Positions 33,001 through 48,000 of a DNA stretch of 64,000 nt are shown piece after piece. Origin of the DNA: an uncultured delta proteobacterium (GTDB taxonomy: Bacteria; Desulfobacterota; Desulfobacteria; Desulfobacterales; JAHEIW01). A program made the position numbers. The stretch covers positions 32,001 through 96,000 of the forward strand of contig CAVPNL010000015.1 in the NCBI GenBank assembly GCA_963706575.1. Reading direction: 5' to 3'. The first letter of the stretch is position 1; every line of letters starts with the position of its first letter.

Positions 33001-36000
33001 GAAAAGGCCCTCTCGCAGGGTCTGGGCTGTATCGTCATTCGTAACGCCAATGATCTCAGCATGCTGGCCAACTATACGATGCAGGCGATTGCGCACGATT
33101 GTATCGGCATTGCGATGACACAGGGCGCTGCAAAGGTTGCGCCATGGGGCGGCCGAGAACCATTTTTCTCGACCAATCCGATATCCATCGCCATACCGGC
33201 CAACAAAAAATATCCAATAGTTCTTGACATGGCGACCAGCGTTGTCGCCGCGGGCAAAATATCGCAAGCCGCTGACAACCGCGAAACGATTCCTGAAGGC
33301 TGGGCCATGGACGCCTCGGGTCAAACCACCACCGATCCCAATGAAGCGATAAAAGGAGCGCTGCTTTCACTGGGGGGCTATAAGGGATTTGGTTTGGCGA
33401 TTATGGTGGATGTATTAAGCGGGGTGCTTGCCGGCATGTCCATGACCCGTGACGCCAAAGCAAAGCGGCCCTGGAACGCGGGGCAGTTCTTTTTGGCCAT
33501 ACATGTTGAGAGTTTCGTGCCGAAGGATTCCTTCAAAGACGCCATTGATGAGTTCATTGTAGATATAAAATCCTGTCGGACCAGACCTGGATTTTCTGAG
33601 ATCAAAATGCCGGGCGAACGCGGATGTCAGGCGACGGAGAAAAGCCGGGACGCCGGTGTCGAGATCCCCGATTTTTTGTGGCAAGATGTTATTGAATTGA
33701 CCGACGAGCTGAACGTGGCCATTCAATCTATTTAACGAAGAGCTCCCTCGGAAAATTGACGAACGTTTCACAACCGTTATCTGTAACCCGTATCGGTTCG
33801 CTGCATTCGAAGCCAAACTCATCCAGCCAAATGCCGGGCATCAGATGGAGGGTCATATTGGGTTTCAAAACCTATTAGTTGATATTGATCATTAATAACC
33901 ACCTAAGTCACTAACCAAGCATAGGAGGAAAGATATGACTTTTAAAGGAGCCTTGTTTATGAGCCCGGAAAGGGTGATTTTCGGGTGTGGGGTGGTCGAT
34001 GATATCGGTACCTACGTAAAACAGCTCGGAGGAATAAAGCCCTTTATCGCCACCGATAAGATAATTTCCGCCATCGCCGCTTTCCAACATATCGAAAATT
34101 CTTTGAAAAAGGATAATATTGACTACCATCTGTATACGGATTGCGATGTCAATCCGACCGACATGCAAATTGAAAACGGATGTAAAATTTACAAAGAGGC
34201 AAAATGCGATGTCATCATTGGTGTGGGCGGCGGCAGCAACTTGGACACCGCCAAATCGATCGGAATAATTGCTACGAATTCCGGCTCAATTCGGGATAAT
34301 TTTGTTACAAGTTATGTAACCGATCCCTATGACACGCCCAATAAAAATGCAACACCACCCATGATTATGGTTCCAACAACCGCCGGAACGGGCAGTGAGG
34401 TAGGCGCCTGGACAGTAGTGACCAATACGGCTGAAAATTATAAAGGCTTTTGCGGCGGATGGATGTGCCTCCCCAAAATCGCTTTATTGGATCCGCTGAT
34501 GACCGTAAGCATGCCGCCGAAATTGACCGCATCAACCGGTTTCGATGCTTTGATCCATGGCATTGAAGCCTATTACCATCGCTATAAAATGCCGCAAACA
34601 GACCTGTATGCGATTTCGGCGATCAAACGAATTTTTAAATACCTGGGTCGAGCCATTGCCAACGGTCGTGATATAGAAGCAAGAGAGCAGATGCTTCTGG
34701 GGGCCATGGAAGCCGGTTTTGCCATGAACACCGGATGTGCTTTGATCCACTCCTCCGGCCTGCAATTAACCTCCAAATTCGGCCTCAGTCATGGTGAAAC
34801 CCTGGCCATCATGGCAGGTCCGGTGATGAGGTTCAATACCATGGCTTGTGTGGACCGGATGATCGATATTGCTAAAGCAATGGCAGAAAATGTTCGCGGA
34901 TTAGGCAAGCTCGACGCCGCCTATAAGGCTGCTGAAGCCGTTCAAAAATATGCTCAATCCATTGAAGTGCCGGTCCATTTGACCAAGGAGATTCATGATC
35001 CGTCCGTGATCCCACATATGGCCCAAAACGCCATATCCAACGACAACACGTATGGGAATCCGCGCATCCCCACCCTGGAACAATTGGAAGCGCTTTACAG
35101 GCAAGCGTATAGTGATCTTTGACATTCCCATAATTTCGATGAATGCTAAATTTCATTGATATACATATTATCCAAACGACAAGCTTATTGAATACAAAAT
35201 GGCATAACCACTTTTAAATTATATAATGCAATATGAAAAATAGATGAATGATGGGTTTCGGCTATAAGACTAAAATCGTACAGTATTTAACCTTCCATCT
35301 TCACATCTAAAATATTTTTAGATCCTTCAATTTCGGCACAGGCACGACATCCCGCATATAATGCAAGTCAAAGCCTTTTATATTAGCAGGTACTACCATT
35401 CCAGCCAAACATAGAAGGTTGCATATCGATCAGGCGATGGTATTGACGATCCGGTACTACGCCCAGTTCCGTTTGCACGAACTCCGTTAGGGTTTTTACA
35501 AACTCCGCGGCCTGCTCCTGTGGAAAAGCGAACAGTTTTAACTGAATATATGCGGTTGGTTCCGTGCTGTCGTCGATCATCAGATGGGCACCGGGATTGA
35601 TGAGCACCATGATCGAACTTTTGGGTTTGTCCAGCATATTCGCCAGCAGATCGGTGGCTTTGTGCAGGAGCGCAGTGCAATGTTCGGGCGTGATGCTTTG
35701 ATTGGTATCTAATGTTAATATCGGCAATTTGACACCTCCTTAGATCAAGATGACGGGGATGTCATCGGGTTGGTTACAATAGAACGGCCACTTCTAACCA
35801 ACCACTTTCAGCTTCGGTTGGATGGGCTGGGGGTCGTAGCCGCTGTCGGCGGTGATGCAAGACACCCCTTCAGCGGTTATCAGATCCCGCAACGTCTCCA
35901 TATGGGCGTCATCCGGGGGATTGATATGATGCAGTTTGTAATCCAGTCCAAGCGCAGTATATTTGGAGAGACCTAATTTGTGATACGGCAGAATTTCAAT

Positions 36001-45000: not shown

Positions 45001-48000
45001 ACCGGAACCATGGTGCCCGGCTCCGGCCGGGTCGAAGTGGCCGCAAAATCACCGGTCATCGGCATCCAAGGCATGGGCAACATGGGCGGCTACTGGGGGC
45101 CGGAGCTAAAATATGCGGGTTATGACAGCATCATTCTAAAAGGCAAAGCAGCCAAGCCGGTCTACATTGCCATCCATAATGACGAAGTCGAGATAAAAGA
45201 CGCCGCGCATCTCTGGGGAATGGACACCTACCGGACCCAGGACGCCATTCGGCAGGAAATGGGCGATCCCGAGATCGAAGTGGTTTGTATCGGGCCGGCC
45301 GGCGAAAATATGATCGGCTATGCCTCCATCCAGAACCGCATGGGAAATGCCGCCGGGCGAACCGGTATGGGTACCGTCATGGGATCTAAAGACCTCAAGG
45401 CCATTGCCGTGCGCGGCACCAAGGGCGTGGCCATCGCGGAGCCCGACAGATTTTTTGAATTGTGCCTGGAGGCCCTGCAGATTCAAAAGCCCCAGCTGGG
45501 AATGGCCAAAACCATCGATCTGGCCGACAACGATCCCCCATCGTGGGGGCTGACACTGGGAAACTACGAAGCCACCGAATGGGAAAAGCAAAAAGAATTA
45601 AAAGACGGACACAAGCCCTTTTGGGAAAACCACAAAAACCGCCAGGGAGAAGGCATCACCGGATGCTTCAACTGCCAGGTCCGCTGCATGGATTACTACG
45701 AGCTTCCCGAATGGGGCCCTCTGGTCGCCAGCTGCAACCTGTATGCCTCGACCACATGGGTATTAAAGGATCCGGACATGAAATCCTGGTATGCGTTTGT
45801 TTCAAAATGCCAGCGCCAGGGCATTGATTCCACCTCGGCTTCACGCATGATTGCCTGGGCCATGGAACTTTATGAACAGGGCAAAATCACTCAAAAAGAT
45901 ACAGACGGAATCGCGCTCAACTGGGGAAACAAAGAAGCCATTGGTCTGATGCTCGACAAAATCGTCAAAAAAGAAGGTTTTGGCGAGGTGTTGGCCAGCA
46001 ATCCGGCCGAGGCCGCCAAAAAGATTGGTGATGACGTTGAAGAAGCCTTACAGATAAAGGGTCTGCCCCTGGGGGGCACCAACGTCATGAATTTCCGGGC
46101 GCGGACCATCGGCGCGGTGGTCAATCCCAGAGGCGGTGATGAATATCGCGCCCGGGTCGGTGCCTTCGACAATCTCGGCAGCGGTAAGAATACCGGAATG
46201 ACCGGAATGTCCAGCCCCGACAGCTGGGAAGCCAAAACCGCCATGTCCATCATCGATGCGGCCCTGGCGAAAAAGAAAGAGGCCGGGGAAGAGCCGATAA
46301 TCGGCCAGTTCGATTACGAGGGCCGCGGGGCGCTGGCCGCCTTGGGCCAAAAGATTTCGACAGTCAGTGATACGCTGGGACAGTGCAAATGGAATACCAT
46401 TTTTCTGAATGTGGGCATTAGCATGGAGTTTCAGGCCAACGCCCTTTCGGCGGGAACGGGACGGGAGACAGGCATCGAAGAGCTCCTGGAAGCCGCATCA
46501 CGCATCTCCTGCCAGGAAAGAGCTTATGCCGTGCGCGAGGGGATGACGAAAGATCAGGACACCCTGCCTAAAAAATTGATCAATTATTCGATGGCGGGAA
46601 CCTATCCGGATGACCAGGTCACGCCGGAGGGCCTAGAAAAAATGAAAGACGAATATTATCAAGCAATGGGCTGGGATGTTAAAACCGGTATTCCAACGCT
46701 CGATACCCTGCGTGCGCTCAATCTGGAAGATGTGGCATCTGATTTGATCAAACAGGGTAAACTTAAAGATGAAATAAAGTAGAACCTAATATGGAGGCTG
46801 GTAAATGAGCAACGTTATCATTATTCATCCCGAAAAGTGCAGTGGCTGCCAGATGTGTGAGGTCAGCTGCTCTCTCAGAAATATGAAGGAATGCAATCCG
46901 GAACGATCGCGCATCCGCGCCATCAAGTCCGAAGAAAATGGCCAGCTCCAGTTTATCCCGTCCACCTGTATGCAGTGTGAAACGGCGATGTGTGAATTGG
47001 TCTGTCCGGTGAATGCCATCAGCAGAGATCCGCAAACGGGCGCCCGGATTATTAGCGAAAAAAAATGTATTGGCTGCAGTTCCTGCAGTTACGCCTGCCC
47101 CTTCGGTGCCTGTTTCGTCGACCGCAGCCTGGGCAAATCCATTGTTTGCAATCAGTGTGACGGCGATCCCACCTGTGTTAAAGTGTGTCCGTCCGGTGCG
47201 CTTGAATATGTGAATGCCGACCAGGTGAACATCAGCCTCAAGCGGGCGGCTGCCCGGCGTATTATGAATGCCCAGGAGATCATTCGAGAATCGCCCGGAC
47301 CGCTGAACGTCAAACCGGATCAGGACCTGTGCTAGTGTAGTGGCCTACAAATAAGTTACAAAATGATTGTCACTCCCGCGCAGGCGGGAGTCCAGTTCAA
47401 AGACGCCTGGATTCCCGCCTGCGCGGGAATGACGGATGGGCAACACGCCTCGATACTTAATAATATTTTAGACACTATTTCCGGGACACAACATTAGGCA
47501 GTTCCATCTGCAAGAATTGAACGCCATCGAAATCTGTAAAAGAGGAGGTGGATATGGTTTGGCAGGGCGATACCTATGATGAAATATGCCGTAATTTCAG
47601 ATGGGAGTTTCCGGAATATTTCAATATCGGCGTGGATATTTGCGATAAATGGGCCGACGACAAATTCCGTTTAGCACTGATATACCTTGATGAGGATGAA
47701 CGCGAGCACAAAATTACCTACTGGGAATTAAAAAACGCCTCAAATCGACTGGCAAATGCATTGCGAGAATACGGTGTCGCCCGCGAGGACCGCATCGGGA
47801 TATTAATGGCGCCCGCGCCGGAGACCTTAATTTCCCATATTGCCGTTTACAAATTGGGCGCCATCCTGGTACCCATGATCCAGCTTTTTGGGCCTCTGGC
47901 GATCGAGTATCGCCTTAAAAACAGCGGGGCCAAAAGCGTTATTACGGATAAAAAAAATCTGGCGAAAATTTTAGAAATTAAAGATCGCCTTCCCGACCTG

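What a model noticed while it worked through the whole genome (the two positions that open the first line are those of the whole stretch)
35383..47335. Homologues of the algal DMSP lyase Alma1 in a conserved operon with aldehyde-oxidising enzymes inside an onium-compound [...]
Two 243/244-aa proteins (g04514, C15:74525-75259; g04486, C15:43140-43871) are 30-35% identical over their length to the proven algal DMSP lyases Alma1/Alma3. g04514 heads a conserved operon alma-like - aldehyde dehydrogenase - tungsten aldehyde:ferredoxin oxidoreductase - polyferredoxin, here beside an uncharacterised glycyl-radical enzyme with activase and MIF tautomerase and a homologue (39.6%) of the Shewanella acrylate reductase; g04486 abuts an MttB-family methyltransferase. 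Proposed: beta-elimination lyases for DMSP-like sulfonium/ammonium compounds.
Evidence so far: Swiss-Prot hits ALMA1 35.1% (15-229), ALMA3/6/7 31-34%; NCBIfam only 'hypothetical protein' NF005679. Of 13 Desulfobacterales loci found with g04514 (76-96% id), 11 have the aldehyde dehydrogenase directly downstream (2 end at a contig edge), 9 go on with AFOR and polyferredoxin, 7 have a PAS/sigma-54 regulator upstream, 2 the glycyl-radical enzyme.
(Added by a program. Inside this text positions count along the whole contig: contig position 32,001 is position 1 of the stretch shown here. "Call 12" and the like, gene names such as g00115 and contig names such as C1 are that model's own, and its searches are not shown. 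The text may have been shortened before it was handed on; [...] marks where a part breaks off. The agent that wrote the report below was given it as the finding of a first reader that could run no searches.)

Follow-up and report, generated by a model that had tools for sequence, protein, structure and literature searches.

The report
Bacterial relatives of algal DMSP lyase
Two small enzymes of a marine sulfate-reducing bacterium are real but distant relatives of the algal enzyme that makes dimethyl sulfide; their gene neighbours tie them to the breakdown of salt-protecting compounds, but their substrate is still unknown.

Summary
Two 244/243-aa ORFs (42525-43259 +; 11140-11871 -) are members of NCBIfam NF005679/PRK07475, the bacterial sister group of the algal Alma DMSP lyases. 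They keep both catalytic cysteines and are 32-37% identical to Alma-type proteins. The first heads a sigma-54-type operon (relative - aldehyde dehydrogenase - tungsten enzyme - polyferredoxin - membrane subunit) conserved in 18 Desulfobacterales loci.

In trees both proteins lie outside the Alma clade. They lack several Alma signature motifs, and one paper states, without showing data, that PRK07475 proteins have no DMSP lyase activity.

Across 82 family copies, the basal diversity sits inside ectoine-type catabolic clusters, in the place that EutA holds in known ones. The clade holding the operon gene sits beside MttB and dimethylglycine-dehydrogenase-like demethylases.

My best reading (0.4) is a cofactor-independent two-cysteine epimerase/racemase of an osmolyte-derived amino-acid-like carboxylate. 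A beta-eliminating lyase on a substrate other than DMSP (0.27) and a true DMSP lyase (0.07) are not excluded.

Two context labels need correction. The 'aldehyde oxidoreductase' carries a BamB-like Cys/selenocysteine. The glycyl-radical enzyme lacks the catalytic Glu of choline lyase.

The parts
42525..43259 (+). p1: PRK07475-family (Alma-like) two-cysteine enzyme, 244 aa, Cys86 (NCGF) and Cys203 (ECTD)
42450..42464 (+). sigma-54-type -24/-12 box TGGCTCAAATTTTGC, about 60 nt before p1
   Evidence: 1 mismatch to the consensus; window-wide 8 hits against 6.1 expected, so weak on its own. TGGC-N8-TGC found upstream of the gene in 12 of 17 type A loci.
43326..44792 (+). aldehyde dehydrogenase, 488 aa; orthologous (65-95% id) in all type A loci
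   Evidence: Best solved relatives are betaine-aldehyde dehydrogenases at about 260 bits, which does not discriminate between substrates.
44803..46782 (+). AOR-family tungsten/molybdenum enzyme with a Cys aligned to the tungsten-ligand Cys322 of BamB; in-frame TGA (likely selenocysteine) at that place in three orthologues
46805..47335 (+). polyferredoxin (YdhY/PadI-like, 4Fe-4S dicluster domains)
47548..49219 (+). acyl-CoA synthetase, frameshifted in this assembly (423-aa ORF plus C-terminal part in another frame); intact at 549-558 aa in L006/L008
49234..50067 (+). enoyl-CoA hydratase/isomerase family protein
50250..51299 (+). TmcC/HmcE-like membrane subunit with a 4Fe-4S domain
   Evidence: 113.6 bits, below cut-off 240; present in 8 of 17 type A loci.
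40003..41415 (+). soluble flavocytochrome-c-family FAD enzyme (2-enoate reductase type)
   Evidence: best solved relative is urocanate reductase, 238 bits.
41621..42271 (+). DUF1847 protein
   Evidence: The same pair stands upstream in L008.
36993..39440 (-). CutC-like glycyl radical enzyme lacking the catalytic Glu (GCVVP)
35794..36753 (-). glycyl-radical activating enzyme
35383..35727 (-). MIF/tautomerase-superfamily protein with Pro after the start codon
29719..31536 (+). PAS/sigma-54 activator, orthologue (64-70% id) of the regulators that lie directly upstream of the relative in other type A loci
11140..11871 (-). p2: second PRK07475-family protein, 243 aa (DCGF, ECSM); groups with the ectoine-type part of the family
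12115..13305 (-). creatinase_N/M24 hydrolase directly upstream of p2; not DoeA-like (87.4 bits to TIGR02993, best 122.6 bits to PepQ)
9651..11132 (+). MttB-family methyltransferase without an in-frame stop, convergent with p2

Best explanation
p1 and p2 are cofactor-independent, two-cysteine enzymes of the bacterial PRK07475 family, the sister group of the algal Alma DMSP lyases. They work in the anaerobic catabolism of compatible solutes.

The shared first step, inferred from the superfamily, is abstraction of the proton next to a carboxylate by one of two facing cysteines (Cys86 and Cys203 in p1). I think it most likely that the second cysteine re-protonates from the other face. That makes the enzymes epimerases/racemases of an osmolyte-derived, amino-acid-like carboxylate:
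- for the basal family members and p2, an ectoine-pathway-type intermediate;
- for p1 and its clade, an N-methylated amino acid or betaine, or its demethylated product.

In the p1 operon a sigma-54/PAS regulator would switch on the epimerase together with an aldehyde dehydrogenase and a Cys/Sec tungsten enzyme. That enzyme would pass electrons through a polyferredoxin to a TmcC-like membrane subunit.

Shown: family membership, fold, conserved Cys pair, operon conservation, family-wide gene contexts. Inferred: reaction type, substrate class, direction of electron flow.
For: Family and fold
- NF005679 is passed by p1, p2 and 8 of 8 further members tested.
- The AlphaFold model has pLDDT 94.2. 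Its nearest solved folds are Glu/Asp/hydantoin racemases and arylmalonate decarboxylase (TM 0.5-0.64, 12-19% id).
- C86 and C203 are invariant in 62 of 62 aligned members.

Position relative to the Alma lyases
- Alma-type domains form one clade on a long stem (29 domains, support 0.999). All bacterial types lie on the other side of it.
- The lyase activity may therefore be a novelty of the eukaryote branch.

Gene context of the 82 family copies (within 7 kb)
- 46 basal copies: M24 hydrolase in 36, TRAP transporter in 31, M20 deacylase in 26, EutB-like in 15.
- Representatives of these neighbours score as relatives of DoeA (511.7 bits), DoeB2 (285), EutB (411.3, cut-off 413), EutC/cyclodeaminase (454 > 408) and DABA transaminase.
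- The relative thus stands where known ectoine clusters hold EutA, which the literature predicts to be a racemase (PMC5924519, passages).
- In the quick tree a derived clade (SH-aLRT 99) holds type A (p1) and type B.
- The 18 type B copies stand beside DMGDH-like (11 of 18), MttB (10), ALDH (6), class-III aminotransferase (4) and corrinoid protein (4).

Neighbours of proline/hydroxyproline-type pathways
- AcnX in 2 type A loci and SoxA/SoxB-like plus ETF in L018.
- Ldh_2 and RidA in the window.

Sequence differences from Alma
- The bacterial invariants E14 and N34 have no counterpart in the Alma-type protein P0125.
Against: - No member of PRK07475 has been characterised, so the reaction type is inference only.
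- The only characterised relatives at 30-37% identity are lyases.
- The closest p1 loci add genes that would process an alpha,beta-unsaturated acid, which fits elimination better than epimerisation. These are an enoate-reductase-type flavoprotein (W, L008) and an acyl-CoA ligase plus enoyl-CoA hydratase (W, L006, L008).
- The core type A operon holds no obvious stereospecific enzyme that would need an epimer.
- The ectoine-type neighbours score below NCBIfam equivalog cut-offs.
- Only two M24 proteins were tested, and the one beside p2 is not DoeA-like.
- The canonical EutA model (TIGR02990) does not match any of the 10 members tested. The EutA analogy is therefore positional, not orthology.
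Confidence: 0.4

Rival explanations
1. p1 is a beta-eliminating lyase or dehydratase acting on a beta-substituted carboxylate other than DMSP. Candidates are beta-alanine betaine, a carnitine-type beta-hydroxy acid, or an onium acid made from its aldehyde by the co-transcribed ALDH. The reaction would be alpha-proton abstraction followed by loss of the beta-leaving group (E1cB), as in Alma1. The enoate product would then be reduced, or activated and hydrated.
For: - The nearest characterised relatives are lyases, and most motif regions are collinear and shared (ITGNCGFM, IKAILFECTDLPPY, GLPVFD).
- ALDH follows the gene in 14 of 17 type A loci, so a freshly made carboxylate is a natural substrate.
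- W and L008 carry an enoate-reductase-type flavoprotein whose best solved relative is urocanate reductase. W, L006 and L008 carry an acyl-CoA ligase plus enoyl-CoA hydratase.
- The window is an onium-compound island with 5 MttB genes.
Against: - Both proteins lie outside the Alma-type clade.
- The Asp of the Alma and ectoine-type loop (GD[IV]) is Cys in 14 of 14 type A members aligned.
- Ligase, hydratase and flavoprotein are found only in the closest 3 of 17 loci.
- No amine- or sulfide-handling gene lies in the core operon.
Confidence: 0.27
2. p1 and/or p2 are true DMSP lyases. They would release DMS and acrylate, and the neighbouring flavoprotein would reduce the acrylate.
For: - Homology to Alma, with both catalytic Cys in NCGF/DCGF and ECT/ECS contexts.
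- An acrylate/urocanate-reductase-type flavoprotein lies 1.1 kb upstream.
- No DddP is present in the genome (best 98.3 bits, cut-off 600), so no rival lyase of that type is present.
Against: - PMC10349084 states that PRK07475 proteins lack DMSP lyase activity and form an out-group.
- Alma1 accepts no DMSP analogue, so it is a tightly shaped specialist (preprint 10.1101/168930, passages).
- The Alma-specific motifs GDIDHPGSFGY, RVVPGLTFEMAQSG and GCZDVPGFD are not matched.
- The family's ancestral context is ectoine-type rather than DMSP-related.
Confidence: 0.07
3. The proteins catalyse another reaction of the superfamily. This could be decarboxylation of a malonate-type acid (arylmalonate-decarboxylase-like) or cis-trans/double-bond isomerisation (maleate-isomerase-like) of a pathway intermediate.
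For: - Arylmalonate decarboxylase structures are among the best fold matches (3ixm TM 0.61, 3dg9 TM 0.60).
- Neighbours that act on unsaturated acids (FAD_binding_2, MmgE/PrpD in type B loci) would suit an isomerase.
Against: - Arylmalonate decarboxylase uses one Cys (recalled), whereas both are invariant here.
- There is no sequence-level match to either enzyme.
Confidence: 0.1

Closest known systems
Alma1 / Alma-type DMSP lyases of algae (Asp/Glu/hydantoin racemase superfamily)
   Same: Same fold family. p1 and p2 are 32-37% identical over about 230 residues to an Alma-type protein. Both active-site Cys lie in the same sequence contexts, and most motif regions are collinear.
   Different: The bacterial proteins lie outside the Alma-type clade. 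They have a single domain of about 244 aa and lack several Alma-specific motifs. One paper says they have no lyase activity. Their contexts are ectoine-type and N-methyl-amine catabolism, not DMSP.
EutA of ectoine/hydroxyectoine catabolic clusters (TIGR02990; predicted racemase, never characterised)
   Same: Same superfamily and the same position in gene clusters, among DoeA/EutD-, DoeB-, EutB- and EutC-like genes and a TRAP transporter.
   Different: A different subfamily. TIGR02990 does not match any of the 10 members tested. p1 itself no longer lies in such a cluster.
Cysteate racemase CuyB and Asp/Glu racemases
   Same: Two-Cys fold. CuyB is the only other NCBIfam model touched, and only weakly (17-26 bits). 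These enzymes are also among the best fold matches.
   Different: Identity is 12-19% and scores lie far below cut-off (190). The loop after strand 1 is long and family-specific.
Hydroxyproline-betaine 2-epimerase HpbD of aerobic betaine catabolism (enolase superfamily; recalled, not read here)
   Same: A functional precedent: an epimerase at the alpha-carbon of a betaine that works with N-demethylases and a terminal semialdehyde dehydrogenase. This is the gene set seen around type B and type A relatives.
   Different: An unrelated fold, aerobic Rieske demethylases instead of MttB/corrinoid, and no evidence here for the substrate.
BamB, the tungsten subunit of class II benzoyl-CoA reductase (for the operon's 'AOR')
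   Same: AOR family, with CxxCxxxC followed 23 residues later by a Cys that aligns with BamB Cys322. A ferredoxin-like partner gene stands next to it.
   Different: Scores to BamB (280 bits) are about the same as to classical AORs (285-312 bits). There are no BamD-I genes, and the partner is a TmcC-like membrane protein.

Membership tests
Alma-type DMSP lyase (criteria of PMC10349084) | Asp/Glu/hydantoin racemase domain | tested here: met
   p1 scores Pfam 34.9 bits (cut-off 31). p2 scores 23.1, below cut-off, but passes NF005679. The fold was confirmed for p1.
Alma-type DMSP lyase (criteria of PMC10349084) | First canonical Cys in DCGF or NCGF | tested here: met
   p1 has NCGF and p2 has DCGF. 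The criterion was read.
Alma-type DMSP lyase (criteria of PMC10349084) | Second canonical Cys in ECTE or ECTQ | tested here: not met
   p1 has ECTD and p2 has ECSM. The Cys is present but its context differs.
Alma-type DMSP lyase (criteria of PMC10349084) | Alma-specific motifs (GDIDHPGSFGY, RVVPGLTFEMAQSG, GCZDVPGFD and others) | tested here: not met
   The motifs were read from Table S1; 8 of the 10 were visible. p1 has PGCPGNATTFSF, RYANVKGANME and AGMEDQKHFYD at these places. The comparison was by eye and by BLAST alignment, not with the authors' scoring.
Alma-type DMSP lyase (criteria of PMC10349084) | Branches inside the eukaryote Alma clade | tested here: not met
   FastTree of 220 domains: 29 Alma-type or long-protein domains form one clade (support 0.999). 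p1 and p2 lie among the bacterial rows.
Alma-type DMSP lyase (criteria of PMC10349084) | DMS release from DMSP | not testable with these tools
   Needs an enzyme assay. The paper's statement that PRK07475 proteins lack the activity was seen without data.
NCBIfam NF005679 / CDD PRK07475 ('hypothetical protein', Asp/Glu racemase family) | Score above the curated cut-off of 231 bits over the full length | tested here: met
   p1 scores 288.2 and p2 290.6. Eight relatives score 260.6-306.1.
Canonical EutA (TIGR02990) | Match to the equivalog model | tested here: not met
   No match at E <= 0.01 for p1 (p2 was tested only at E <= 1e-5) or at E <= 1 for 8 other family members.
Choline trimethylamine-lyase CutC (for the GRE at 36993-39440) | Equivalog score, plus the choline-binding and catalytic residues (roles recalled from the CutC structure papers) | tested here: not met
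   TIGR04394 scores 732.9 bits against a cut-off of 1050. Against D. alaskensis CutC: Y208->M, D216->E, T334->P, E491->V, Y506->G; F395, C489 and T502 are kept. GCVVP is found in 4 of 4 GREs of type A loci.
Classical tungsten aldehyde:ferredoxin oxidoreductase (for 44803-46782) | AFOR_N and AFOR_C domains; no protein ligand to tungsten (recalled); EYE-type segment after the cluster motif | tested here: inconclusive
   Both domains are present. All 10 of 10 operon copies have Cys or TGA where BamB has its tungsten-ligand Cys322, whereas classical AORs in the same loci have EYE there.

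The most novel reading that the evidence does not exclude
The bacterial PRK07475 family, p1 included, consists of E1cB lyases/dehydratases for beta-substituted osmolyte carboxylates: a hydroxyectoine-type substrate in the basal clusters, and a beta-onium or beta-hydroxy acid such as beta-alanine betaine, DMSP or a carnitine-type compound in the p1 clade. 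In marine Desulfobacterales the p1 operon would then be a new anaerobic route. ALDH would make the onium acid, the Alma-like enzyme would release the amine or sulfide, and a Cys/Sec tungsten enzyme wired to the membrane would handle the enoate. This would be a previously unseen bacterial source of TMA or DMS in sediments, and the ancestral chemistry from which the algal DMSP lyase arose.
Probability: 0.25. Interest if true: 0.85.

Novelty: new variant of a known kind. Interest (0 to 1): 0.55.

Why it matters
The function of the bacterial relatives of the algal DMS-releasing enzyme is an open question. The one paper that names them (PRK07475) says only that they differ from the algal enzymes. 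This analysis gives the family a physiological address:
- ectoine-type clusters of anaerobes;
- MttB/dimethylglycine-dehydrogenase-type demethylation clusters;
- a sigma-54 operon with an aldehyde dehydrogenase and a Cys/selenocysteine tungsten enzyme in marine Desulfobacterales.

That yields a short list of substrates that can be tested directly. If the enzymes turn out to be lyases, sediments would hold a new bacterial source of DMS or TMA. If they are epimerases, they fill an unassigned step in anaerobic osmolyte breakdown and show what the algal lyase evolved from. The same island also holds a glycyl-radical enzyme clade without the usual catalytic glutamate.

Tried and rejected
- Sequence searches of solved structures found no near relative. 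With the single sequence there was only a chance hit. With a profile the best was Asp-racemase homologue 2zsk at E 0.0054.
- The ESM Atlas returned only unnamed 'Asp/Glu racemase family' clusters and no structure search.
- The search for fused forms gave 1 protein, fused to a cation-efflux domain and probably a gene-calling artefact. It gives no Rosetta-stone clue.
- Literature. 'PRK07475' occurs in one work only, preprint plus paper. Nothing was found for MttB + AOR + Desulfobacter + betaine + racemase. No paper links a glycyl radical enzyme to DMSP, betaine or carnitine in the 2026 GRE review. The Alcolombri 2015 Science paper is not held, so I could not see whether bacterial homologues were ever assayed.
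I could not measure whether residue 31 lies at the active site.
- The careful treekit tree did not finish in 300 s, so the quick tree was used.
- My greedy ORF caller lost the relative in 14 loci. These were added back by their tblastn coordinates. ORFs predicted to overlap the relative were not counted, so those counts are lower bounds.
- Sequencing runs. 14 DNA runs of sediment or estuary metagenomes hold 19-45% of the sampled words, and 6 RNA libraries hold 5-8%. Laid at >=90% likeness, contigs of 4 RNA libraries from 4 studies cover parts of all four genes. Two contigs span the ALDH/AOR junction (X17 44655-44952, X19 44594-44924). These are mostly 90-95% relatives, contigs cannot show one transcript, and DNA can be present in RNA libraries. 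This is only a weak hint that relatives of the operon are expressed in sediments.
- I considered a sulfonate reading (sulfolactate-type elimination), prompted by the Ldh_2 and weak CuyB hits. I dropped it because the sister clade is tied to MttB/DMGDH genes.

Full report
1. WHAT IS THERE

p1 is 42525-43259 (+), 244 aa. p2 is 11140-11871 (-), 243 aa. They are 45% identical to each other. Both pass NCBIfam NF005679 (= CDD PRK07475, 'hypothetical protein') with 288 and 291 bits against a cut-off of 231. Pfam sees only a weak Asp/Glu/hydantoin-racemase domain: 34.9 bits for p1, and 23.1 bits for p2, which is below the cut-off of 31.

An AlphaFold model of p1 built on 62 family sequences is confident (pLDDT 94.2, pTM 0.90). 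Its nearest solved folds are glutamate, aspartate and hydantoin racemases and arylmalonate decarboxylase, at TM 0.5-0.64 and 12-19% identity. No solved structure is close by sequence.

Two cysteines are invariant in all 62 aligned members. These are Cys86 in ITGNCGF and Cys203 in FECTDLPPY. Each follows a beta-strand at the start of a helix, as in the two-base racemases.

2. RELATION TO THE ALGAL DMSP LYASES

Shemi et al. (PMC10349084; I read passages, the supplement's figure legends and Table S1) define Alma-type lyases by three features: the racemase domain, two Cys in DCGF/NCGF and ECTE/ECTQ, and ten discriminating motifs. They name PRK07475 as the closest bacterial subfamily. They say its members 'do not possess DL activity' and form an out-group. 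I saw no data for the activity statement, and the original Science paper is not held.

p1 has NCGF and ECTD. p2 has DCGF and ECSM. The motif regions around both Cys and GLPVFD are shared. GDIDHPGSFGY, RVVPGLTFEMAQSG and GCZDVPGFD are not.

I could not put Alma1 itself into a tool. A profile search of 1.84 billion representatives found 3490 relatives at E <= 0.001 and 782 at E <= 1e-30. Among the best 150 are long two-domain proteins that carry the Alma motifs GDIDHPGS, GDCGFMMAF and ILLECTELPPY. Against one of them, P0125, p1 is 34% and 32% identical and p2 is 37% and 33% identical, over about 230 residues.

In a FastTree of 220 domains, the Alma-type and long-protein domains form one clade. 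It has 29 rows, support 0.999 and a stem of about 1 change per site, and it holds 15 of the 16 motif-tagged domains. p1, p2 and all context-typed bacterial rows lie on the other side.

Alma1 accepts none of five DMSP analogues (preprint 10.1101/168930, passages). It is a tightly shaped specialist, and transfer of its substrate to a 33%-identical sister group is weak.

3. THE p1 OPERON

p1 is followed on the plus strand by:
- an aldehyde dehydrogenase (43326-44792);
- an AOR-family enzyme (44803-46782);
- a polyferredoxin (46805-47335);
- an acyl-CoA synthetase, frameshifted in this assembly;
- an enoyl-CoA hydratase;
- a TmcC-like membrane protein.

A -24/-12-type box, TGGCTCAAATTTTGC, lies about 60 nt before the start. 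Window-wide the pattern is no commoner than chance (8 hits against 6.1 expected). However, TGGC-N8-TGC stands upstream of the gene in 12 of 17 type A loci.

Among 17 copies at >=73% identity, all Desulfobacterales-type records and the window included:
- ALDH is the next gene in 14. The misses are two contig ends and one fragmentary locus.
- The AOR-family gene follows in 10, the polyferredoxin in 9 and the TmcC-like gene in 8.
- A PAS/sigma-54 regulator lies upstream in 10.
- A GRE is present in 3, ligase plus hydratase in 3, the FAD_binding_2 flavoprotein in 2, and AcnX in 2.

L014 adds one more regulator - relative - ALDH locus. The ALDH is orthologous within this set, at 65-95% identity.

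The window's regulator at 29719-31536 is the orthologue (64-70% identity) of the regulators that elsewhere lie directly upstream. In this lineage about 11 kb has been inserted between regulator and operon. The insert holds RidA, Ldh_2, Fe-ADH, MIF, GRE activase, GRE, flavoprotein and DUF1847.

4. TWO CORRECTIONS TO THE CONTEXT

(a) The 'aldehyde:ferredoxin oxidoreductase'. This protein scores about equally to classical AORs (285-312 bits) and to BamB of class II benzoyl-CoA reductase (280 bits). Twenty-three residues after the first Cys of CxxCxxxC it has a Cys that aligns with BamB Cys322, which I recall as the tungsten ligand.

All 10 of 10 operon copies have this residue. In three of them (L012, L013, L016) the codon is an in-frame TGA, which suggests selenocysteine. 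Classical AORs in the same loci have an EYE segment at that place. The enzyme may therefore not be a plain aldehyde oxidiser.

(b) The glycyl-radical enzyme. It is CutC-like (732.9 bits, cut-off 1050). Aligned to Desulfovibrio alaskensis CutC, it has Y208->M, D216->E, T334->P, E491->V and Y506->G, and it keeps F395, C489 and T502. The residue roles are recalled. PDB variants 5kdp and 5fav carry A and Q at the E491 place in the alignments.

GCVVP is conserved in all 4 GREs of type A loci, including two paralogues of Desulforhopalus singaporensis at 82% and 59% identity. A MIF-like protein with Pro after the start codon accompanies them. The GRE is neither a choline lyase nor a typical 1,2-eliminase, and its substrate is unknown.

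5. FAMILY-WIDE CONTEXT

A scan of one genome per species found 393 relatives. I studied the best 80 loci plus the window, which gives 82 copies. In a quick IQ-TREE of 69 copies the basal, paraphyletic diversity comes from Atribacterota, Bacillota, Spirochaetota, Thermodesulfobacteriota and one archaeon.

Basal copies (46). Within 7 kb they have at least:
- M24 hydrolase in 36;
- TRAP transporter in 31;
- M20 deacylase in 26;
- EutB-like dehydratase in 15;
- an unknown 316-aa protein in 15;
- PanB-like in 12, IclR in 12 and GDH-like in 11;
- RidA in 8 and EutC-like in 4.

Representatives of these neighbours score as relatives of ectoine hydrolase DoeA (511.7 bits, cut-off 613), DoeB2 (285), EutB (411.3, cut-off 413), cyclodeaminase/EutC (454 > 408) and diaminobutyrate transaminase. 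The common order is M24 - relative - M20. The family thus stands where known ectoine clusters hold EutA, a predicted but untested racemase (PMC5924519, passages; bioRxiv 10.64898/2026.03.05.709796, passages). It is nevertheless a different subfamily, because TIGR02990 matches none of the 10 members tested.

Caveats on this part:
- Only two M24 proteins were tested. The one beside p2 is PepQ-like, not DoeA-like.
- The genome's DoeA-like gene lies on another contig, with no relative beside it.

Derived clade (SH-aLRT 99 in the quick tree). It holds type A (p1) and type B. Type B has 18 copies from Chloroflexota, Armatimonadota and alpha- and gamma-proteobacteria. Beside them lie a DMGDH-like protein (at least 11 of 18), MttB (10), ALDH (6, of other subfamilies at 27-31% identity to the type A ALDH), class-III aminotransferase (4), corrinoid protein (4) and ETF (3). 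The order is often DMGDH-like - relative - MttB.

Residues that separate the clades lie in the long loop after strand 1 and next to the Cys. Types A/B have P28, C/T/S31-P32-G33, NCGF and ECT. The basal type has I28, D31-V32, DCGF and ECS. The Asp at position 31 is also in the Alma motif GD[IV]. It is Cys in 14 of 14 type A members aligned.

6. READING

All members of this superfamily that I know begin by taking the proton next to a carboxylate. What happens next decides between epimerase, lyase, isomerase and decarboxylase, and no computation here can settle it.

I give the epimerase/racemase reading 0.40, for these reasons:
- It is the commonest chemistry of the fold.
- A second, unrelated subfamily of the same fold (EutA) was recruited to the same kind of cluster.
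- The lyases are a long-branched eukaryote offshoot.
- Betaine catabolism has a precedent for an alpha-carbon epimerase working with N-demethylases and a terminal semialdehyde dehydrogenase (HpbD, recalled).
- Proline/hydroxyproline-type neighbours occur: AcnX, SoxAB-like plus ETF, Ldh_2 and RidA.

I give a lyase on another beta-substituted carboxylate 0.27, for these reasons:
- The only characterised relatives are lyases.
- The ALDH just downstream could make the substrate acid.
- The three closest loci add an enoate-reductase-type flavoprotein, an acyl-CoA ligase and an enoyl-CoA hydratase.

A true DMSP lyase gets 0.07, another superfamily reaction 0.10, and the rest is unassigned. The genome has no DddP.

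7. NOVELTY

PRK07475 proteins are named in one work only. I found nothing in print on their link to ectoine-type or MttB clusters, on this operon, on the Sec/Cys AOR-family enzyme or on the Glu-less GRE. The library lacks most subscription journals, and bioRxiv supplements were not seen. The 2026 preprint draws eutA genes in Thermodesulfobacteriota clusters, and I could not check whether these are PRK07475 members.

Near-identical DNA occurs in marine, estuarine and other sediment metagenomes. Contigs from four RNA libraries cover parts of the operon at mostly 90-95% likeness, which is only a weak hint of expression.

Noticed in passing
window 44803-46782; L012:7440-9392, L013:12356-14293, L016:12251-14206: The operon's AOR-family enzyme has Cys (7 copies) or an in-frame TGA (3 copies) in GPLVAS[C/U]N, 23 residues after the first Cys of CxxCxxxC. 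This aligns with BamB Cys322. It is a likely selenocysteine/cysteine tungsten-ligand clade of the AOR family.
   Followed up: partly
window 35383-39440 (-); L006:5785-9548; L016:2242-9693: A CutC-like glycyl-radical enzyme clade has GCVVP instead of GCVEP, so the catalytic Glu is absent. Several choline-binding residues are also changed. It always stands with an activase and, in W and L016, a MIF-like Pro-1 tautomerase. D. singaporensis has two paralogues.
   Followed up: partly
window 47548-49219: The acyl-CoA synthetase is split by a frameshift near residue 400 in this assembly. Its C-terminal AMP-binding part reads on in another frame. The orthologues in L006 and L008 are intact at 549-558 aa.
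   Followed up: partly
window 26716-28213 (-); L011:4160-5632: An MttB gene in the window is split. The two parts are in different frames and the first stop is TAA, so this is a frameshift and not a simple pyrrolysine TAG. The MttB of L011 has a single in-frame TAG in ...VAGG*GDSK..., as expected for pyrrolysine.
   Followed up: partly
window 33731-33883 (-) (= C15:65731-65883): A 47-aa remnant of the C-terminus of a DoeA-like M24 hydrolase, with stop codons, lies between the Ldh_2 and Fe-ADH genes. It may be a relic of an ectoine-type cluster at this place.
   Followed up: no
window 52290-63521: A second sigma-54/PAS regulator (61782-63521) lies divergent from a minus-strand operon: MttB - Liv-type ABC transporter (5 genes) - classical AOR (52290-54188). 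This is another pairing of a methyltransferase with an aldehyde oxidoreductase.
   Followed up: no
loci L044, L049, L054, L057, L066, L069, L073, L083 and others: Ectoine-type clusters of anaerobes carry a recurrent extra set that is not part of the known aerobic pathway: an IclR regulator, a Glu/Leu/Phe/Val-dehydrogenase-family protein, a PanB-like hydroxymethyltransferase and an unknown 316-aa protein with no Pfam or NCBIfam match. This may be a different anaerobic route from diaminobutyrate.
   Followed up: partly
own genome C15:130755-131093 (outside the window); L022:9950-14972: The genome holds a third, 111-aa fragment of the family with an internal TGA. L022 holds three copies in a row, two of them only 28-31% identical to p1 and forming a very long branch.
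   Followed up: no
window 12115-16454: p2 lies downstream of a creatinase_N/M24 gene. Nearby are a DUF1638-hydantoinase/oxoprolinase fusion (946 aa), an M19 dipeptidase and a DMGDH-like gene. This set is reminiscent of creatine/creatinine-type or cyclic-amide catabolism.
   Followed up: no
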